A stretch of 49,695 nucleotides of DNA from an uncultured archaeon (GCA_964610875.1 CAZSWP010000011.1:37967-87661); one strand, 5' to 3'; shown: positions 1 to 6,060, counted from the first letter of the stretch. Numbers and translations: made by a program. The notes: generated by a model not told the origin, from the sequence alone.

Positions 1-1170
1 AAAGACTCCCTGTTCATCCAGGTTGAGGTGTCGGGGAATGGGGTTATTCTCAATGTCCAGCTTGTTGAGAATCGCCTCAATACGTCTATCACTGACATAC
101 CCATATTCTGCTTTAGAGATATGTTTTGGTCCACTGAAAACATAATAGACACTCTCTGCGTTGGGCTCTTCGCCTACATCAGCATATGATGATTCTTTGA
201 CAGCATATTCAATCATTGCTCTCAACTGACGTGGCATACTACCCGCATCAGGAATTAGGCCAACATCTGTATACAGTGCTGGAACAACTACTGGGTCAAG
301 CTTTCTGGCATAATCTGCGAGGTCTGTTGTGGGGAATACATCTTTGTCGGGTTCATAAACCCCTGGTGAAAGCATTGCTTCCACAACGTCAAGTGCAAGT
401 GGATTCACCAGTTCAACGAAAGCCTGTTCAGTACGTGCTTCGAGTTCACTACCTTCATCTAGAGTGGATGGCACCATTGTTTCAACAGATTCGATATCTG
501 CAATGTCCACGTTGAGTTCACGTTCAAGATAGCTAACACTGTCAGCACGTCGTGAATTCAGAATACGTTTGAGCATCGTGCGGTTACTTAAGAGAATAGT
601 AAGGTCTGCACCTCTTTCCTGTAACTGAGCACGTAATAATTTCGATACTGCCCAGATGGAGTTCAATGCTTCACTTGATTGTCCTTCAAAAGGGAGAATC
701 CCGATCACGTAAACGAAGATACGACGTCCCTCTTCTTCTTGAAATCTTTGTTTTAGCAACTCAATGATAGCTGGTGTGCCTCCACACCCTGTACCTCCTC
801 CAAGACTGGTGAAAATACAGAATCCTGATACTCCTTCAAATCCTAGGTCTCCAAGCTGATCGAAGATGATATCTTTGGATTCATGGACTGCATTGTATCC
901 GTCCATAAATCTACCACCCACACCAATCTCGCTAGCGCCATAGAGCATTGTATGTTCCTTTGGAATCTCATACTTGGAGCGGACTTTTGTGAGGTCTGCT
1001 CGGTCGGTATTCATTAGCAGATAGCCTCTTACGCGAGAGGGAAGTCTCTTGTCCTTACTCGATTTCAGGTATGAGCCAACGATATTTGACCCACACTCTC
1101 CAACACCAATTGCGAAGACCTCTGCTGCTTTCGTCAGTTCGTCATCGCTTATTTTTCCACCACCAAACAT
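1..1170 (-). CDS. Divergent tubulin/FtsZ-superfamily GTPase (CetZ/tubulin-like), 3' end outside the window
   Basis: Manual translation from ATG at 1170 gives 390 open codons to the window edge. It contains MFGGGKISDDELTKAAEVFAIGVGECGSNIV (T1), LLMNTD (T2), GVGG (T3), FTSLGGGTGCGG (tubulin signature T4), GILPFEGQ (T5), LLSN (T6) and TTDLADY (T7-like). GGAG RBS at 1181-1184 (minus strand). Confidence 0.92.
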   Translation of the reverse strand, partial: MFGGGKISDDELTKAAEVFAIGVGECGSNIVGSYLKSSKDKRLPSRVRGYLLMNTDRADLTKVRSKYEIPKEHTMLYGASEIGVGGRFMDGYNAVHESKDIIFDQLGDLGFEGVSGFCIFTSLGGGTGCGGTPAIIELLKQRFQEEEGRRIFVYVIGILPFEGQSSEALNSIWAVSKLLRAQLQERGADLTILLSNRTMLKRILNSRRADSVSYLERELNVDIADIESVETMVPSTLDEGSELEARTEQAFVELVNPLALDVVEAMLSPGVYEPDKDVFPTTDLADYARKLDPVVVPALYTDVGLIPDAGSMPRQLRAMIEYAVKESSYADVGEEPNAESVYYVFSGPKHISKAEYGYVSDRRIEAILNKLDIENNPIPRHLNLDEQGVF

Positions 1171-1189
1171 TTTGAACAGACTCCAATAC

Positions 1190-3877
1190 TTATCCTCTTT
1201 TTTCTACCATTGATTTCATTATTTCCTTAATAGCCCATGTCAAATATGAGCTGATATCTTCCCTGCTGTAAGTTTCTTTGATTTTTCTAACAGCATCGTC
1301 AATGAATTTTGTTCGTTCATCTGCACTTGCAGCAGGACTAAATCCAGTCATGAACATCTTCATTGATTTGTGCCAATCATCCATCTTCTCAGCTTTCTCA
1401 ACCCATCCCATTCTTAGTTCTTTCAGTTTATTGAAGTATTCAAGTGCTTCATTTAGTTGCACTGCATCAGAGAGAGATTTCTCAAGCTCTTTGATCTTGG
1501 AAAGGTCATATATCAGGTCGCTGAACTCGTCTGGATGTGTTTCATATACTCTTTCAATGGTTGAGTAATACTTTGACCTGTTTTTGATTTCCTTTGTATG
1601 ATCCTCACCATCTTGCCCTGCAATTGACTTGATAACACCAAGCATCTCATCCTGAATGTTTGCTAATGTCAAACAGACCTCAAGAGAATCGGTGACAAAT
1701 TTATCCTCTTCTCTCATCTTTGATGGTACTTGATCAAGCAGTGTGTTCAACCTATCAACAAAGTCTTGCTTTCCTTGTTGTTCAAATATCGATACTGCTC
1801 CTTTGATTTGCTTGTACGCATCATCTGCTCGATTCCTTATTTTCTCCTGAATTGTATTAGAGGTTGTCAAACTCGCCAATACATCAAAAGCATCAGCCGC
1901 GTCTTCAAGCTCTGTGGGAGGTTCATCTTTCAATTTCTGTAGAGTTTCCAACTCCTCAACAAGTGGTACACCAATTGATGCAGCTTTTCCGAAGGAATCG
2001 AGAAGCCCCTTTACTTCTTTCTCCAAGGATTCCAAGACATTTCCTGTTATCCGTTTCTCATAGATTTCAATCATCTTCCTAGCAATCGCAGGCAAACTGA
2101 AGACATTATCCGCAGCCACACCAATGTTGTTTAGTTCACTGATAGCTTCTTGCACATCTTCAGGTAATTCGACACCTGCACCAAGAAGCTTTGCGGCAGC
2201 AAGTCTAATTTTGATACTCAATCTGTATCTGAGATTCTCCAATGCTTCTTGCGCTTTGGCTAGGATACTCTCCTTAGTTGTTCTCATTTCTGAGCGAATT
2301 TCTGCAAATTCAGTCAGTTTGTTGATCTTTGCGGAACCTTCCTCAAGATCAACAATTATCGGTAAGAAGATTTCCGCATAAGCAGGTTTGATAGTTTGAA
2401 GGTCTTGGATAATTGCATCAATCTCTTGTTCACAGGCTTGTCTGAATGTGGCTACACCACTCTCTACAGCATCTCGCAGATTCTTCAGTGATTGCAGAAG
2501 ATAGACAATCCCTCCTTCTAGTTCTTCCACCCTAGGTGCTTTCTTGCTCAGCTGAGCATGATCCAACACCCTGTCTGCAGATGTGGCCAATTCATTAAAT
2601 CGTGTTAGATATTTTCGGATAGAATCAGTAACAGCTTTTCTATGAGCCTCATCCATCTGCTTTGCATGAGTATGAACCCGAATCATATAATCAATTTCGT
2701 TCTTCTTGAGGTCTTTCTTTGCTTCAGCCAGGAATTCTCGTACACTCACTACATCTTTAATACCAGTATCCTCTGGTGAATCAGTTGCTTTTGAAATATC
2801 TTCTAGAATTTCCTCGATTTGGTCTTTCAAAGCAATTTTCACTTGCCCTTCCCAACCAACCATCTCTTGATAGGATGACAGTAGCGTTGGCACATCCTCT
2901 GTTTCTGTTGATATCACTGGGGCCGTGGGTAGCACATCTGACGTAACAGGTATTCCCCCCTCAACAATTTTGCTGGTCACTTCGTGCTTCATATTGATGA
3001 TTCTATCACGAAGCATATTGGCTATTTGAAGCCGTGAAGAATGCATCTGGTTTTCTAATGCCAAGAGGGTAGTAAGGTCTGTTGCTTTTGATGCATCTCT
3101 CGCAAGCATTCTTAATTTCTGGGAAAAGTCCATAGGTAAATCCAATCCCAATCGTGTGGCAGTTTCAACAGATGATTGTAAGGATTCGACATCACTCATC
3201 AAAGAAACCCCAAGCATCCTTCCAACTTCATCTTTTCTGCCATCTAGATATTCTTTTTCTTCCTTTAGCTTGTCAGATAGAATTATCAAATCCGTAAGTG
3301 GGAGGCCTAGTACATCTTGATTTGATACTGAAGTAGTCACAGCACTTCTGTCAATTGTAATATGCCTTTCATAAGTTTCTACTGTCCCTCTATTCTCATC
3401 ATGCAGTTCCTTGGTTTCTCTGGCAATATCATTTCTAAGACTTGAATATTGTTTCGAGAAAGTTTCTGCAAAACCAAATAATTTCTCAAAATCTTGGAAG
3501 TCACCTGCGGCAACTGATGGGAATGGAATTGACGCTACCGCCTTTGCTTCTTTAGGTTTCATTTCCTCAAGTTTCGACATCAGTTCAGTGACTGACTTTT
3601 TCTCCTTCCTATAGAGTTCAGCAAAGTCTCTGACCACTCGCATGAATTCATCTTCAAGATCTCCACCGACTTTCTCTACTTGTGTCTGAACTTTGCGTTT
3701 TCCAAGAAAACCTGCACTTGATAGTTCATTCTCAAGTTTCGCAAAACTAGCAAACAATTCGTATAGCTGGCGTACTTGACGACTTGCTTGTTCATCTAAT
3801 GTGGGATTGACTGAAACGAGCATTCCTTTTAATTCGGAGATTTTGTCTAATTCTCTCCGCCACTTTTTGCTATCCAA
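1190..3877 (-). CDS. Large alpha-helical repeat / coiled-coil protein (895 aa), unknown function
   Basis: E/K/L/A-rich heptad-like sequence with a recurring helix-G-h-x-LP-helix turn (LGLDLPMD, GAGVELPED, IGVPLVEE). No Walker A motif and no TM segment. TTG start with GGAGG upstream. Stop lies 19 bp before the tubulin-like ATG. Confidence 0.85.
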   Translation of the reverse strand: MDSKKWRRELDKISELKGMLVSVNPTLDEQASRQVRQLYELFASFAKLENELSSAGFLGKRKVQTQVEKVGGDLEDEFMRVVRDFAELYRKEKKSVTELMSKLEEMKPKEAKAVASIPFPSVAAGDFQDFEKLFGFAETFSKQYSSLRNDIARETKELHDENRGTVETYERHITIDRSAVTTSVSNQDVLGLPLTDLIILSDKLKEEKEYLDGRKDEVGRMLGVSLMSDVESLQSSVETATRLGLDLPMDFSQKLRMLARDASKATDLTTLLALENQMHSSRLQIANMLRDRIINMKHEVTSKIVEGGIPVTSDVLPTAPVISTETEDVPTLLSSYQEMVGWEGQVKIALKDQIEEILEDISKATDSPEDTGIKDVVSVREFLAEAKKDLKKNEIDYMIRVHTHAKQMDEAHRKAVTDSIRKYLTRFNELATSADRVLDHAQLSKKAPRVEELEGGIVYLLQSLKNLRDAVESGVATFRQACEQEIDAIIQDLQTIKPAYAEIFLPIIVDLEEGSAKINKLTEFAEIRSEMRTTKESILAKAQEALENLRYRLSIKIRLAAAKLLGAGVELPEDVQEAISELNNIGVAADNVFSLPAIARKMIEIYEKRITGNVLESLEKEVKGLLDSFGKAASIGVPLVEELETLQKLKDEPPTELEDAADAFDVLASLTTSNTIQEKIRNRADDAYKQIKGAVSIFEQQGKQDFVDRLNTLLDQVPSKMREEDKFVTDSLEVCLTLANIQDEMLGVIKSIAGQDGEDHTKEIKNRSKYYSTIERVYETHPDEFSDLIYDLSKIKELEKSLSDAVQLNEALEYFNKLKELRMGWVEKAEKMDDWHKSMKMFMTGFSPAASADERTKFIDDAVRKIKETYSREDISSYLTWAIKEIMKSMVEKRG

Positions 3878-4092
3878 GAGTTAACCTCCTGCTACTGCGC
3901 GACTGGTTTTTCACATTTATCAGTATTAAGTGTGTTCTGGATTTATCTATAAAGCGCTATCTCTTATTCAGCCCTTTGAATGTCTAATTGCTAAGGTTTT
4001 TGAGTAATCGCATGGTACAAAAAGGAGATGTAGAAATAAGGGTATGCCCAGTTTACTTAAAAACCGTAAGTTTCCTTTTAGAGTGGATATAT

Positions 4093-6060
4093 ATGTCTAA
4101 TGCATCAGGAGGTTCTGTTGAGGCACTACATCTCAATCATGAGATTCTAGCAAAAATACCTGGTGAGGTCGTTAGTATTGACCAGGATGATGAATTTCTC
4201 TATGCCGCTTTTAACGACCTAAAAGTACGCGTCATCTCAAAGGAAGATTGGCAAATTGAGGCCGTACTAGGTGACACGAATTCCGAACCACTCGCAGTAA
4301 ATGTAGATGATGAACATCTCTATGCAACTTGTGAGAAACGAGTATACGTCTGGAAAAAGGGAACTTGGGGCATGATCGGATGGTTTGAGTTAAGCTATTC
4401 TGCAATTACATCGACGCTTCATGAAGATTCACTCTTTGTGGGAGCGAAAGATGGACGCTTAGTTTCAATTAAGAAGGATACACATGAAACATCCAGTTGG
4501 CAGCTTTTCAAAGCTGATATAACTCAGCTTTGGGCTGACCATGGAATTGTATGTCTTGGTACCGCAAAAGATGAACCTCGAGTGTGGGAGCTAAGAGAAA
4601 ACGCAGCCCCTGCAGAACTAGCTCATTTTGATAAAAAGGAAAAGGGGGCCAAGCTTACAGGTGATGATGAGTTTGTCTTTGTTGGAGTAAATGCAGATGA
4701 GATACACATTTACGATCAAGTTGACTGGACGCTGCTAAGAATCTTAGAATCCACTTTAGAAGAACCTGTGTCTTCTATGTGGTCAAATGGTCTTTATCTC
4801 ATCGTAACTTCCAATGCATCAAGAATAGCAATTTGGGATTTGAGAAAAGCTGCCCTTGTTGGAGAAATTATGACCGATATAGGTCGAGCAAATGCAATTG
4901 CTGGTGATCGAGAATTTCTTTTCTTGGCTACAAACGATGGGTTATTTATTCTACGTTTGAAACTTGATGAACAAGAAATGAATCTCTCTTCAACAAAGGA
5001 TACGAAATATGATAGTCTCCTTAGAACATCCCCCTATGATGTTTTAGAAGGTGTACTTGTTTTGCAAAAGAAGGGTGATGAATTCATGGAAGGGTCTGAA
5101 TATCATAAAGCAGTTGCTGAGTATGAAAAGGCGTTACAGCTACTGATTGACAATACTCATGCTCTACTTGAGGTTCCTAAAGAACGAGAGAGAATCACTA
5201 ATGTTCTTAACACCCGTCTTGGTAAGTCGCTCCTTCGTGCAAAAATCTATGAGCTTCAGGAGTTTTCTGATGAAGTTCAAGAGTTGTCTAAGCAAATTGA
5301 CACCCTTGGGAAGGCACAGGAAACAGAAACTGATGTGGAAAAAAGATGGAATGTTATTTCTAGGGTAATAAAGGAAAGCAGAGTTCTAGCAGAATCTCAA
5401 GCTGGTCATATTCTCAGCTATCAATTAACCAGTCTTGCAGATGAATTAGAGGAGCGACTTGGAAGAACTCAAGACAAACTAGCTAGTTATCGCGAGAGAG
5501 TGGATCAAACTAGAGATTTTGTGGAAAACCTCAGAAACGAATGGAATTTTATCCAGCGAAAAAGAACATTGCTAGAGGAACGGAAAGCTTTCCTAGAACG
5601 TGCAATATCAGATATCCATGGACGCATAGAAGAATATGATGAAGATAATGATGCTGAGGTTAGAGGAATACTGACCACCGCACTTGATGAATATGAAAAG
5701 CTTTTGAAACAAATTTCACATATTCTTGAAGCCGCAGAAACTATTTCGGAACAGATTGTATCAACAAAAGAGGAAGCACTGGCTGCTATAGAAAGTTTAG
5801 CGCAGGTTTTGGAGAAGAAGAAGAAATCTCTTCAACAGATTGCTGATGTGAGTGAGAAGGAGGCTGAAATTTGTCGATTAGAAACCGCTGTCAAACAAGC
5901 AGTAGAAATGGCTGAATCCTTCAAATTGGATGATGAAATTGATGACTTGCAGAGTACGATGAATGAAGTCTTAGGTATTACTGACGAAGGAAAAACTACT
6001 AAAAAGAAGAAGACTACTTCGAAGAAAAGAAAAAAGAAAGATAAGACGAAGAGTGAATAA
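4093..6060 (+). CDS. WD40-like 7-bladed beta-propeller + TPR/MIT-like helices + coiled coil, with Lys-rich C-terminal tail
   Basis: Seven ~40-aa repeats (e.g. VVSIDQDDEFLYAAFNDLKVRVI, LAVNVDDEHLYATCEKRVYVW, VSSMWSNGLYLIVTSNASRIAIWDL), then KGDEFMEGSEYHKAVAEYEKALQLL, long heptads and a KKKKTTSKKRKKKDK tail. ATG 4093 (MSNASGG) preferred over TTG 3988. Confidence 0.8.
   Translation: MSNASGGSVEALHLNHEILAKIPGEVVSIDQDDEFLYAAFNDLKVRVISKEDWQIEAVLGDTNSEPLAVNVDDEHLYATCEKRVYVWKKGTWGMIGWFELSYSAITSTLHEDSLFVGAKDGRLVSIKKDTHETSSWQLFKADITQLWADHGIVCLGTAKDEPRVWELRENAAPAELAHFDKKEKGAKLTGDDEFVFVGVNADEIHIYDQVDWTLLRILESTLEEPVSSMWSNGLYLIVTSNASRIAIWDLRKAALVGEIMTDIGRANAIAGDREFLFLATNDGLFILRLKLDEQEMNLSSTKDTKYDSLLRTSPYDVLEGVLVLQKKGDEFMEGSEYHKAVAEYEKALQLLIDNTHALLEVPKERERITNVLNTRLGKSLLRAKIYELQEFSDEVQELSKQIDTLGKAQETETDVEKRWNVISRVIKESRVLAESQAGHILSYQLTSLADELEERLGRTQDKLASYRERVDQTRDFVENLRNEWNFIQRKRTLLEERKAFLERAISDIHGRIEEYDEDNDAEVRGILTTALDEYEKLLKQISHILEAAETISEQIVSTKEEALAAIESLAQVLEKKKKSLQQIADVSEKEAEICRLETAVKQAVEMAESFKLDDEIDDLQSTMNEVLGITDEGKTTKKKKTTSKKRKKKDKTKSE

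What the first reader, a model, noticed from the sequence alone, without database searches (positions are those of the whole stretch)
1..3877. Unannotated divergent tubulin-like GTPase in an operon with an 895-aa helical-repeat partner
Seen: a tubulin/FtsZ-superfamily ORF missing from the ORF track. Its T1 GECGSNI is closer to tubulin GQCGNQI than to FtsZ GGGG.NA, T4 is SLGGGTGCG and T7 is TTDLADY. It lies 19 bp downstream of a long all-helical protein with no ATPase or TM. Established: canonical FtsZ has N.DFAD in T7 and sits with division genes; CetZ, TubZ and FtsZl1/FtsZl2 are separate families, and FtsZl families associate with coiled-coil genes. Inference: a two-component cytoskeletal module (GTPase filament plus dedicated scaffold or MAP-like protein) in a probable Asgard archaeon, possibly a distinct clade.
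Basis: partly seen in the sequence, partly recalled or inferred. Interest (0 to 1): 0.85.

Follow-up and report, generated by a model that had tools for sequence, protein, structure and literature searches.

The report
Asgard tubulin-like gene with two partners
The open frame is a real tubulin/FtsZ-type GTPase of the Asgard-only "Asg.Tub" family, which was named in 2023 but never studied at the bench. It sits between the same two unknown helical proteins wherever it occurs, so it is probably an unexplored filament system in the archaea closest to eukaryotes.

Summary
Window 1-1170 (- strand) encodes a tubulin/FtsZ-superfamily GTPase with the stated T1, T4 and T7 motifs, 19 nt after an 895-aa all-helical protein.

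- **The gene is broken by the assembly.** A 10-N scaffold gap lies just before window base 1. The last 33 codons (window 1-99) match no homologue. The true C-terminus (106 aa) lies just past the gap, so the whole protein is about 460 aa.
- **The family is published.** It is "Asg.Tub" of Santana-Molina et al. 2023 and is uncharacterised. It forms its own clade. By profile it is nearest to CetZ (E 6e-28), far ahead of tubulin and FtsZ (about 1e-9).
- **The module has three genes.** They are A (895 aa rod), TUB and B (355 aa). In 251 Asgard genomes they occur in the same 8 of 28 families (98, 96 and 96 genomes). They are adjacent in all 19 loci fetched.
- **A and B match no known family or fold.**

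Direct binding and polymerisation remain untested. My one complex prediction (TUB with B) gave no answer.

This scan has already found the same module on other DNA, in at least 37 genomes.

Verdict: a real member of a named but unstudied family, of moderately high interest.

The parts
1..99 (-). 33 codons (YVSDRR...QGVF) read in frame after Gly357, with no counterpart in any homologue. They abut a 10-N scaffold gap that lies just before window base 1. They are either an assembly tip or chimera, or the edge of a strain-specific insertion.
   Evidence: In homologues ...KAEYG is followed directly by MHLKEAL. All 96 genome matches end at query residues about 357-365. The 99 nt occur only once in the genome. 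The N run is at C11:37957-37966.
100..1170 (-). Asg.Tub gene, residues 1-357: GTPase domain, the family-specific insert of about 45 aa between T6 and H7, the T7 loop, and the first part of the C-terminal domain. The remaining 106 residues lie beyond the gap at G000:C11:37635-37955 (L005:11636-11956, -).
   Evidence: PF00091 at 72.9 bits. It is 92% identical to 464-aa homologues. The 106-aa ORF past the gap aligns to residues 358-460 of the homologues. Motifs are shown.
1171..1189 (-). 19-nt spacer between gene A and the tubulin-like gene, with a GGAG ribosome-binding-like motif.
   Evidence: Sequence read directly. The same tight spacing is seen in the 19 related loci.
1190..3877 (-). Gene A: an 895-aa acidic, all-alpha protein made of successive helical bundles. 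It is the first gene of the operon and has a TTG start.
   Evidence: AF2 model with mean pLDDT 86.5, all helices. No Pfam family above threshold. No significant PDB match. It is co-distributed with and adjacent to the tubulin-like gene.
3878..3987 (-). Upstream region of the operon: AGGAGG at 3890-3885, 7 nt before the TTG start, and an AT-rich TATA-like box TTTATAGATAAA at 3953-3942. It is shared with the divergent WD40 gene.
   Evidence: Sequence read directly. The promoter assignment is inference, with no transcript data.

Best explanation
Window 100-1170 (- strand) is the first 357 codons of an Asg.Tub gene. Asg.Tub is the Asgard-specific, CetZ-like branch of the tubulin/FtsZ superfamily. 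The gene is whole in the organism, at about 460 aa, but the assembly splits it with a scaffold gap. It is the middle gene of a three-gene operon, A-TUB-B. A is an 895-aa helical-bundle rod. B is a 355-aa protein with an N-terminal three-helix bundle, a disordered linker and a conserved C-terminal helical domain.

Most likely mechanism (inferred, not shown): TUB binds GTP and polymerises head to tail. The T7 aspartates of one subunit complete the GTPase site of the next, giving dynamic protofilaments as in CetZ, FtsZ and tubulin. A and B are dedicated cytosolic partners that bundle, measure, cap or anchor these filaments. Together they would form a cytoskeletal system separate from the two true FtsZ division proteins that the same genome also encodes.

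Shown here: family identity, intact nucleotide and catalytic motifs, strict co-inheritance and adjacency of the three genes, and the lack of membrane segments or known domains in A and B.

Inferred: polymerisation, binding of A or B to TUB, and the cellular role.
For: Superfamily and motifs:
- PF00091 scores 72.9 bits.
- The T1, T4 and T7 residues, including D283 and D286, are invariant in 27 members.

Family identity:
- Homologues of about 460 aa occur in Thor-, Hod-, Heimdall- and Hermod-archaeal MAGs.
- The Asg.Tub members listed in the supplement of PMC9871819 include Heimdall LC-3 OLS26264.1, whose printed start is that of P0114, and Thor KXH77455.1.
- The family is a clade with 99-100 SH-aLRT support.
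- Against 1.84 billion representatives, the family scores 1e-205 and 1e-189, the next hit 6e-44, and the rest 1e-19 or weaker.

Nearest named family:
- CetZ, by PDB profile search: 4b46 at 1e-13, 3zid at 6e-9, 4b45 at 3e-8.
- hhalign gives E 6e-28 over 365 columns for CetZ, against about 1e-9 for Asgard tubulins and FtsZ.

The module:
- In the same 251 Asgard genomes, TUB is found in 96, A in 98 and B in 96. All three lie in families f1, f2, f6, f8, f12, f15, f16 and f22, and none was found in the other 20 families.
- The order A>TUB>B on one strand, with spacers of a few to tens of nt, holds in all 19 primary loci, while the flanking genes differ between lineages.
- A and B have diverged to about 20% identity where TUB keeps 41-55%, yet they stay adjacent.

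Operon signals:
- A Shine-Dalgarno motif precedes A. There are 19-nt and 3-nt spacers, and a T-run follows the stop of B.

Other points:
- The genome also has FtsZ1 and FtsZ2 above the TIGR00065 cut-off.
- None of the three proteins has a TM segment.
Against: - No experiment or transcript data exist for any member.
- I found no characterisation in the literature searched.
- The fold of TUB itself was not predicted here.
- The signature GGGTGCG carries Cys where all studied relatives have Ser or Thr. T7 has Thr where FtsZ and tubulin have Asn. So nucleotide handling could differ.
- A and B gave no informative fold or family match, so their roles rest on gene context alone.
- In this particular assembly the gene is interrupted. 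If window 1-99 is a real insertion, this strain's copy could be disrupted.
Confidence: 0.6

Rival explanations
1. It is simply a divergent CetZ. It would control cell shape in the CetZ manner, and the two neighbouring genes would be lineage-specific accessories without a direct role.
For: CetZ is by far the nearest named family. A tree that holds Asg.Tub, its six nearest unnamed relatives and CetZ together is not rejected (p-AU 0.18). One member is auto-annotated 'Tubulin-like protein CetZ'.
Against: The 14-31 CetZ representatives, including P0143, which matches H. volcanii CetZ1 (4b46) at 3e-113, form a clade that excludes Asg.Tub with 94-97 SH-aLRT support. Asg.Tub has its own insert of about 45 aa and a conserved C-terminal tail. 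The published analysis found that the genomic contexts of CetZ and these CetZ-like groups are unrelated. The A and B genes are kept next to it across eight Asgard families.
Confidence: 0.15
2. It is a GTPase that does not polymerise. It would act as a nucleotide-dependent switch or assembly factor in a stable complex with A and B.
For: The Cys in the T4 signature, the Thr in T7 and the large acidic insert near the longitudinal interface are unusual. The partners are obligate.
Against: Both T7 acidic residues, which matter only when subunits stack head to tail, are invariant. All studied members of the superfamily with intact T7 loops polymerise (established knowledge of FtsZ, CetZ, TubZ and tubulin).
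Confidence: 0.15
3. It is a true tubulin relative or precursor that forms microtubule-like tubes, as the tubulin-like T1 motif suggested to the first reader.
For: T1 GECGSN resembles beta-tubulin GQCGNQ. The last C-terminal helix aligns weakly with the H12 region of Asgard tubulins (E 1.2e-4 over 36 columns). In some published trees Asg.Tub branches near tubulins.
Against: There is no Tubulin_C (PF03953) match in the protein or anywhere in this genome. hhalign to Asgard tubulins covers only 117 columns at E 7.6e-10, against 365 columns at 6e-28 for CetZ. The authors of the 2023 study themselves argue against a tubulin affiliation.
Confidence: 0.05
4. It is a DNA-segregation or mobile-element system of the TubZ/PhuZ type.
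For: It is a small operon of a tubulin-like GTPase with accessory genes, and Tubulin_2 (PF13809) gives a weak hit of 19.5 bits.
Against: That hit is below the cut-off of 27. The locus is chromosomal, with housekeeping neighbours such as purine synthesis genes and a CoA ligase. It is single-copy and inherited in whole families. No DNA-binding domain is detected in A or B. No repeats or integrase genes lie beside it.
Confidence: 0.05

Closest known systems
Asg.Tub (Santana-Molina, del Saz-Navarro & Devos 2023, Front Microbiol 13:1100249, PMC9871819). Probably also the 'CetZ-related Asgard archaeal clade' used as an outgroup in bioRxiv 10.64898/2026.02.15.705738.
   Same: It is the same protein family. 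The four sequences listed under that name (two Thorarchaeales, Heimdall LC-3, Heimdall B3-JM-08) carry the same GIGECGSN, GGGTGCGGTP and TTDLADY motifs. LC-3 is P0114 of my hit list. The paper also noted neighbours that are unknown proteins with coiled-coil regions.
   Different: The paper had four sequences and gave no function. It did not describe a fixed three-gene module, its distribution, or the nature of the partners. Here the module is traced through 8 of 28 sampled Asgard families, with a second A-TUB pair in one of them.
CetZ (Duggin et al. 2015; structures 4B46 CetZ1, 4B45 CetZ2, 3ZID)
   Same: CetZ is the nearest named family by sequence profile over both domains and the first C-terminal helix. 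Both are non-division tubulin-superfamily paralogues of archaea that also keep FtsZ1 and FtsZ2.
   Different: Asg.Tub lies outside the CetZ clade in my trees. It has E-C in T1, Cys in T4, an insert of about 45 aa after T6, and a longer conserved tail. It is always flanked by A and B, which CetZ genes are not.
BtubA/B-BtubC of Prosthecobacter and AtubA/B operons of Asgard archaea
   Same: Both are operons of tubulin-superfamily GTPases with a dedicated non-GTPase partner gene (BtubC stabilises the filament).
   Different: Those are true tubulins with Tubulin_C and form heterodimers. Here there is a single GTPase, no Tubulin_C domain, and the partners are not TPR proteins. In the genomes sampled, true tubulins were found only in families without Asg.Tub.
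Halo.Tub, the CetZ-like protein of the 'Halo_adaptin' system (Makarova et al. 2024, PMC10936438)
   Same: It is another CetZ-like outlier that sits in a conserved multi-gene module with non-enzymatic partner proteins. It branches near Asg.Tub in the published trees.
   Different: Its partners are beta-propeller/Ig 'adaptin-like' proteins and a Vps4-linked system. A and B are all-helical and no ESCRT genes lie beside them.

Membership tests
Tubulin/FtsZ superfamily | GTPase domain matching Pfam PF00091 above the gathering score | tested here: met
   72.9 bits against a cut-off of 33, residues 17-201.
Tubulin/FtsZ superfamily | Glycine-rich T1 and the T4 signature GGGTG[ST]G | tested here: met
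   G22, G24, G27 and G124-G130 are invariant. The signature reads GGGTGCG, with an invariant Cys in place of Ser or Thr.
Tubulin/FtsZ superfamily | T7 loop with a catalytic acidic residue that activates GTP hydrolysis in the next subunit | tested here: met
   TDLAD aligns with FtsZ NLDFAD and tubulin N.DL.E. D283 and D286 are invariant in 27 members. Activity itself was not tested.
Asg.Tub | Groups with the sequences listed under that name (KXH77455.1, OLS30664.1, OLS26264.1, PWI48967.1) | tested here: met
   The start of the sequence printed for OLS26264.1 in the supplement equals that of P0114. The query is 50-92% identical to family members, and the family has 99-100 support as a clade.
Asg.Tub | Restricted to Asgard archaea | tested here: met
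   All named hits are Asgard MAGs. Only two full-length 50%-identity representatives were found among 1.84 billion proteins. It was found in 96 of 251 Asgard genomes. Other phyla were searched only through the protein libraries.
CetZ (canonical) | Falls inside the CetZ clade that holds H. volcanii CetZ1 and CetZ2 | tested here: not met
   The CetZ representatives (P0143 matches 4b46 at 3e-113) form a clade without Asg.Tub, with SH-aLRT 97 and 94. A sister relation is not rejected (p-AU 0.18).
CetZ (canonical) | CetZ-specific consensus residues defined by Brown & Duggin 2023 | not tested
   The residue list was not retrieved. Only the paper's text on the family boundary was read.
FtsZ | Scores above the TIGR00065 equivalog cut-off | tested here: not met
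   36.7 bits against 295.2. The genome's two real FtsZ genes score 418 and 396 bits.
Tubulin proper (alpha/beta/gamma, OdinTubulin, AtubA/B) | Tubulin C-terminal domain PF03953 | tested here: not met
   No hit in the protein and none in the whole genome. hhalign to Asgard tubulins covers 117 columns only.
TubZ/PhuZ-type segregation systems | Tubulin_2-type GTPase with a DNA-binding adaptor (TubR-like) on a plasmid or phage | tested here: not met
   PF13809 scores 19.5 bits, below the cut-off of 27. No DNA-binding family was found in A or B. The context is chromosomal.

The most novel reading that the evidence does not exclude
A-TUB-B is a third, Asgard-specific tubulin-type cytoskeleton. TUB would form GTP-driven filaments. 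Its conserved tail, in which the first helix is CetZ-like and the last weakly resembles tubulin H12, would serve as an outer docking surface for the rod protein A and the adaptor B. That would be a prokaryotic counterpart of the relation between tubulin and microtubule-associated proteins. It is present in Hodarchaeales-type genomes, which are among the closest relatives of eukaryotes, and it seems to be an alternative to true tubulins in the genomes sampled.
Probability: 0.3. Interest if true: 0.8.

Novelty: new variant of a known kind. Interest (0 to 1): 0.6.

Why it matters
Asgard archaea are the closest prokaryotic relatives of eukaryotes, and their actin, ESCRT and tubulin systems are being used to reconstruct how the eukaryotic cytoskeleton arose. 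Asg.Tub is a tubulin-superfamily branch that appears in trees only as an unstable outlier between CetZ and tubulin, and it has no known function.

It comes as a fixed three-gene cassette with two partner proteins of unknown fold, in about a third of the sampled Asgard genomes, including Hodarchaeales-type ones. That turns it into a concrete and cheap experimental target of three soluble proteins. If the three form a filament system, archaea would have a further tubulin-type cytoskeleton with dedicated accessory proteins. That would bear on when filament-binding partners first evolved.

Tried and rejected
- **Complex prediction.** TUB (alignment A2) with the C-terminal domain of B (residues 146-355) scored 0.17 and 0.19, under the mark of 0.32. 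The verdict was 'no answer', so nothing follows from it. A with TUB could not be tried, because only one job was allowed and A is too long to send whole.
- **Fold searches for B.** Foldseek against PDB gave nothing below E 0.19. VIA-align wide matched only the N-terminal three-helix bundle to generic spectrin-, Not5- or CorA-like bundles at Z 8-10, below the level that is meaningful for helical bundles. The ESM Atlas gave TM 0.3 or less by the query. The C-terminal domain was not folded alone, so I do not claim a new fold.
- **Fold searches for A.** Foldseek's best hits were dynein tail and PRC1 at E 0.07 or weaker and TM about 0.1. VIA-align gave Z 11 or less on single bundles such as catenin, talin or BAR domains. 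The protein atlas returned only A's own cluster. Pfam on 21 members gave nothing consistent.
- **Closing the gap.** Two microbial-mat runs hold the locus at depth about 4, but no contig covers L001:1370-1718, the stretch around the gap. An exact 40-mer from window 21-60 is absent from the metagenome contigs. The origin of window 1-99 stays open.
- **Names for the nearest non-family relatives.** The cluster look-ups gave almost no names.
- **An intein at the break.** Rejected: the residue after the break is Met, not Cys, Ser or Thr, and the inserted stretch starts with Tyr.
- **The careful (bootstrap) tree.** It did not finish in the time allowed, so SH-aLRT quick trees were used.
Full report
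**1. What is in the sequence**

On the - strand, an ORF starts at ATG 1170 and runs off window base 1 (390 codons). It shows up only when open-ended frames are listed. Its product matches Pfam Tubulin/FtsZ GTPase (PF00091, 72.9 bits against a cut-off of 33).

Nineteen nucleotides upstream ends an 895-codon ORF (1190-3877, TTG start preceded by AGGAGG). Its product has no Pfam or NCBIfam family above threshold and no hydrophobic segment. It is predicted to be entirely alpha-helical.

**2. The 3' end**

The window is G000:C11:37967-87661. Directly before its first base lies a run of 10 N, one of 32 such scaffold gaps in this assembly.

Homologues are about 460 aa long. In them the sequence ...KAEYG is followed at once by MHLKEAL.... 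In this genome, 33 codons follow the Gly (window 1-99) that match no homologue. All 96 genomic matches stop at query residue about 357-365. These 99 nt occur nowhere else in the genome.

A 106-codon ORF starts right after the gap, with exactly MHLKEAL. It aligns to residues 358-460 of the homologues at up to 90% identity. So the gene continues on the next scaffold piece, and its true product has about 460 residues.

What the 99 nt are could not be settled. They may be an assembly tip, a chimera, or the edge of a strain-specific insertion. The two public runs that hold the locus have no contig over this stretch, and an exact 40-mer is absent from the metagenome collection.

**3. Family**

Word-indexed search found 194 relatives. 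The full-length ones are 440-480 aa, and all named ones come from Asgard MAGs (Thor-, Hod-, Heimdall-, Hermod-archaeota). Nearly all are called 'hypothetical protein'.

A profile of 27 members was searched against 1.84 billion 50%-identity representatives. It found two full-length family representatives (1e-205 and 1e-189), then one distant protein at 6e-44, then nothing better than 1e-19. The family is therefore sharply bounded.

The literature already knows it. Santana-Molina et al. [quoted passage not shown] Their supplementary files list its four members, with sequences carrying the same motifs. One of them, Heimdall LC-3 OLS26264.1, starts exactly like my hit P0114. [quoted passage not shown] I found no paper that characterises the protein.

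**4. Relation to the known families**

The table gives comparisons of the Asg.Tub profile with the named families.

| Compared with | PDB profile search | hhalign |
|---|---|---|
| CetZ | 4b46 1e-13; 3zid 6e-9; 4b45 3e-8 | E 6e-28 over 365 columns, both domains |
| Tubulins | beta and gamma about 1e-6; OdinTubulin 9e-6; AtubA 1.4e-5 | Asgard tubulins: E 7.6e-10 over 117 columns |
| FtsZ | not among the best 60 listed | Asgard FtsZ: E 1.8e-9 over 167 columns |

4b46 and 4b45 are H. volcanii CetZ1 and CetZ2.

In maximum-likelihood trees, built with LG+G4 on 81 rows and LG+C20 PMSF on 51 rows, the groups behave as follows:
- Asg.Tub is one clade (SH-aLRT 99-100).
- The CetZ representatives, one of which matches CetZ1 at 3e-113, are another clade (97 and 94).
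- Asgard tubulins and FtsZ are also separate clades.
- The deep nodes have no support.

An AU test rejects Asg.Tub plus CetZ as an exclusive clade (p 0.0013). It does not reject that clade once the six nearest unnamed relatives of Asg.Tub are included (p 0.18). These groups were chosen after the tree was seen, so the tests are only indicative.

In short, Asg.Tub is CetZ-like but lies outside canonical CetZ, and it is neither FtsZ nor tubulin. It scores 36.7 bits on TIGR00065 against a cut-off of 295. Neither the protein nor the genome has a Tubulin_C domain.

**5. Features of the protein**

Invariant in 27 members are the T1 glycines with E25 and C26, the signature G124-G130 with C129, N196 in T6, and D283 and D286 in T7.

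Aligned with CetZ, FtsZ and Asgard tubulins, TDLAD occupies the place of FtsZ NLDFAD. The catalytic acid that a subunit inserts into its neighbour's GTP site is therefore kept.

Specific to the family are an acidic insert of about 45 residues between T6 and H7 and a well-conserved tail of about 70 residues. In isolated profile comparisons, the first tail helix matches CetZ (E 9e-5 over 31 columns). The last matches the H12 region of Asgard tubulins (E 1.2e-4 over 36 columns). Both matches are weak and are leads only.

**6. The module**

I searched the same 251 Asgard genomes with the three proteins.

| Protein | Genomes with a match (of 251) |
|---|---|
| TUB | 96 |
| A | 98 |
| B (355 aa, encoded directly downstream of the gap, outside the window) | 96 |

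All three are confined to the same eight families (f1, f2, f6, f8, f12, f15, f16, f22). None was found in the other twenty, including 0 of 54 in f9 and 0 of 26 in f5.

In all 19 primary loci that I fetched, the order is A>TUB>B on one strand with short spacers or overlaps. The genes on either side are conserved only within lineages. The divergent WD40 gene at window 3988-6060 is one of these lineage-specific neighbours (Thor family only).

Against this genome, A falls to about 20% identity and B to about 24% in the most distant lineages, where TUB keeps 41-55%. In family f22, two genomes fetched carry a second A-TUB pair without B (L024, L025). The A-TUB pair thus looks like the core.

In this genome the operon has the following signals. 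A TATA-like box and a Shine-Dalgarno motif precede A. There are 19-nt and 3-nt spacers. A T-run lies 10 nt after the stop of B. The promoter and terminator assignments are inference.

**7. The partners**

A is modelled with mean pLDDT 86.5 and pTM 0.40. It is a chain of helical bundles with helices of 30-45 residues. In Hodarchaeales-type genomes it is 1140-1185 aa, with extra sequence between the conserved N- and C-terminal parts.

B is modelled with mean pLDDT 81. It has a three-helix bundle (residues 7-111), a disordered linker (112-145) and a compact helical domain (150-355, pLDDT above 90). That domain holds the invariant residues D159, P183, P226, L230, G291, E296, R298 and K354.

Neither protein gave a significant match in PDB, the ESM Atlas or Pfam. 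All three proteins are acidic and lack membrane segments.

**8. How it most likely works**

By analogy with every studied superfamily member that has an intact T7 loop, TUB should assemble head to tail in a GTP-dependent way and hydrolyse GTP on assembly.

The obligate, co-diverging partners suggest direct binding. A is a long rod that could run along or cross-link filaments. B is a two-domain adaptor whose conserved C-terminal domain would bind TUB or A, while its N-terminal bundle binds something else.

The genome keeps FtsZ1 and FtsZ2, so the module is not the division ring. This mechanism is inference. The single complex prediction I could run (TUB with B residues 146-355) gave no verdict.

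**9. Novelty and score**

The protein is a new member of a family published in 2023. What the literature I could search does not describe is the fixed three-gene cassette, its distribution and the nature of the partners. I rate the whole as a new variant of a known kind (a tubulin-superfamily filament with accessory proteins), with interest 0.6.

The same module has been reported many times by this scan on other genomes, with the same reading. I reached my reading before seeing those notes, and they do not count as independent evidence.

Noticed in passing
window 1-99 and the 10 N just before window base 1 (G000:C11:37957-37966): The scaffold gap falls exactly at the Gly357/Met358 junction of the tubulin-like gene. 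The 99 nt on the window side are unique and match no homologue. The other scaffold piece starts one base before the Met codon. This pattern fits an assembly-graph branch point, such as a strain variant with an insertion or a spurious tip.
   Followed up: partly
window 3988-6060 (+): A 690-aa protein with weak WD40 propeller hits and a helical C-terminal half is transcribed divergently from the operon. Its homologue keeps that position only in the three loci fetched from the same (Thor-type) family that have it (L006-L008), and in no other lineage fetched. It is therefore not part of the conserved module.
   Followed up: partly
L024:4060-8831 and L025:1055-5827 (family f22, Hodarchaeales-type): A second, paralogous A-TUB pair (A 1141 aa, TUB 444 aa) lies elsewhere in the genome. 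It has no B gene and is followed by a convergent 735-740-aa gene. Several other f22 genomes showed a second TUB match.
   Followed up: partly
L026-L033 (families f3, f14, f21): True tubulins with a Tubulin_C domain were found in only 7 of 251 Asgard genomes, all in families where Asg.Tub was not found. Conversely, none of the 96 Asg.Tub genomes had one. The numbers are small and the genomes are related, so this is only a hint of complementary distribution.
   Followed up: no
L034:8001-10149: The nearest relative outside the family (P0127, E 6e-44, organism unknown) is followed, with a 14-nt overlap, by a 262-aa protein. Its C-terminus aligns weakly to the end of B (hhalign E 3.7e-4, probability 36%). 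No A-like gene lies upstream, where the genes encode SMC, ScpA and dihydroorotate dehydrogenase.
   Followed up: partly
L005:8677-10089 (G000:C11, just downstream of gene B): A 470-aa CoA-binding / succinyl-CoA-ligase-like protein (of the type seen in ADP-forming acyl-CoA synthetase) follows the module in families f1 and f16 but not elsewhere. It is probably a lineage-level neighbour only.
   Followed up: no
tree, rows rep_P0140 to rep_P0209: A well-supported clade (SH-aLRT 100) of 13 unnamed tubulin-superfamily representatives of 397-450 aa is distinct from CetZ, FtsZ, tubulin and Asg.Tub. One member is labelled 'tubulin-like protein CetZ' by JGI. I did not identify it.
   Followed up: no
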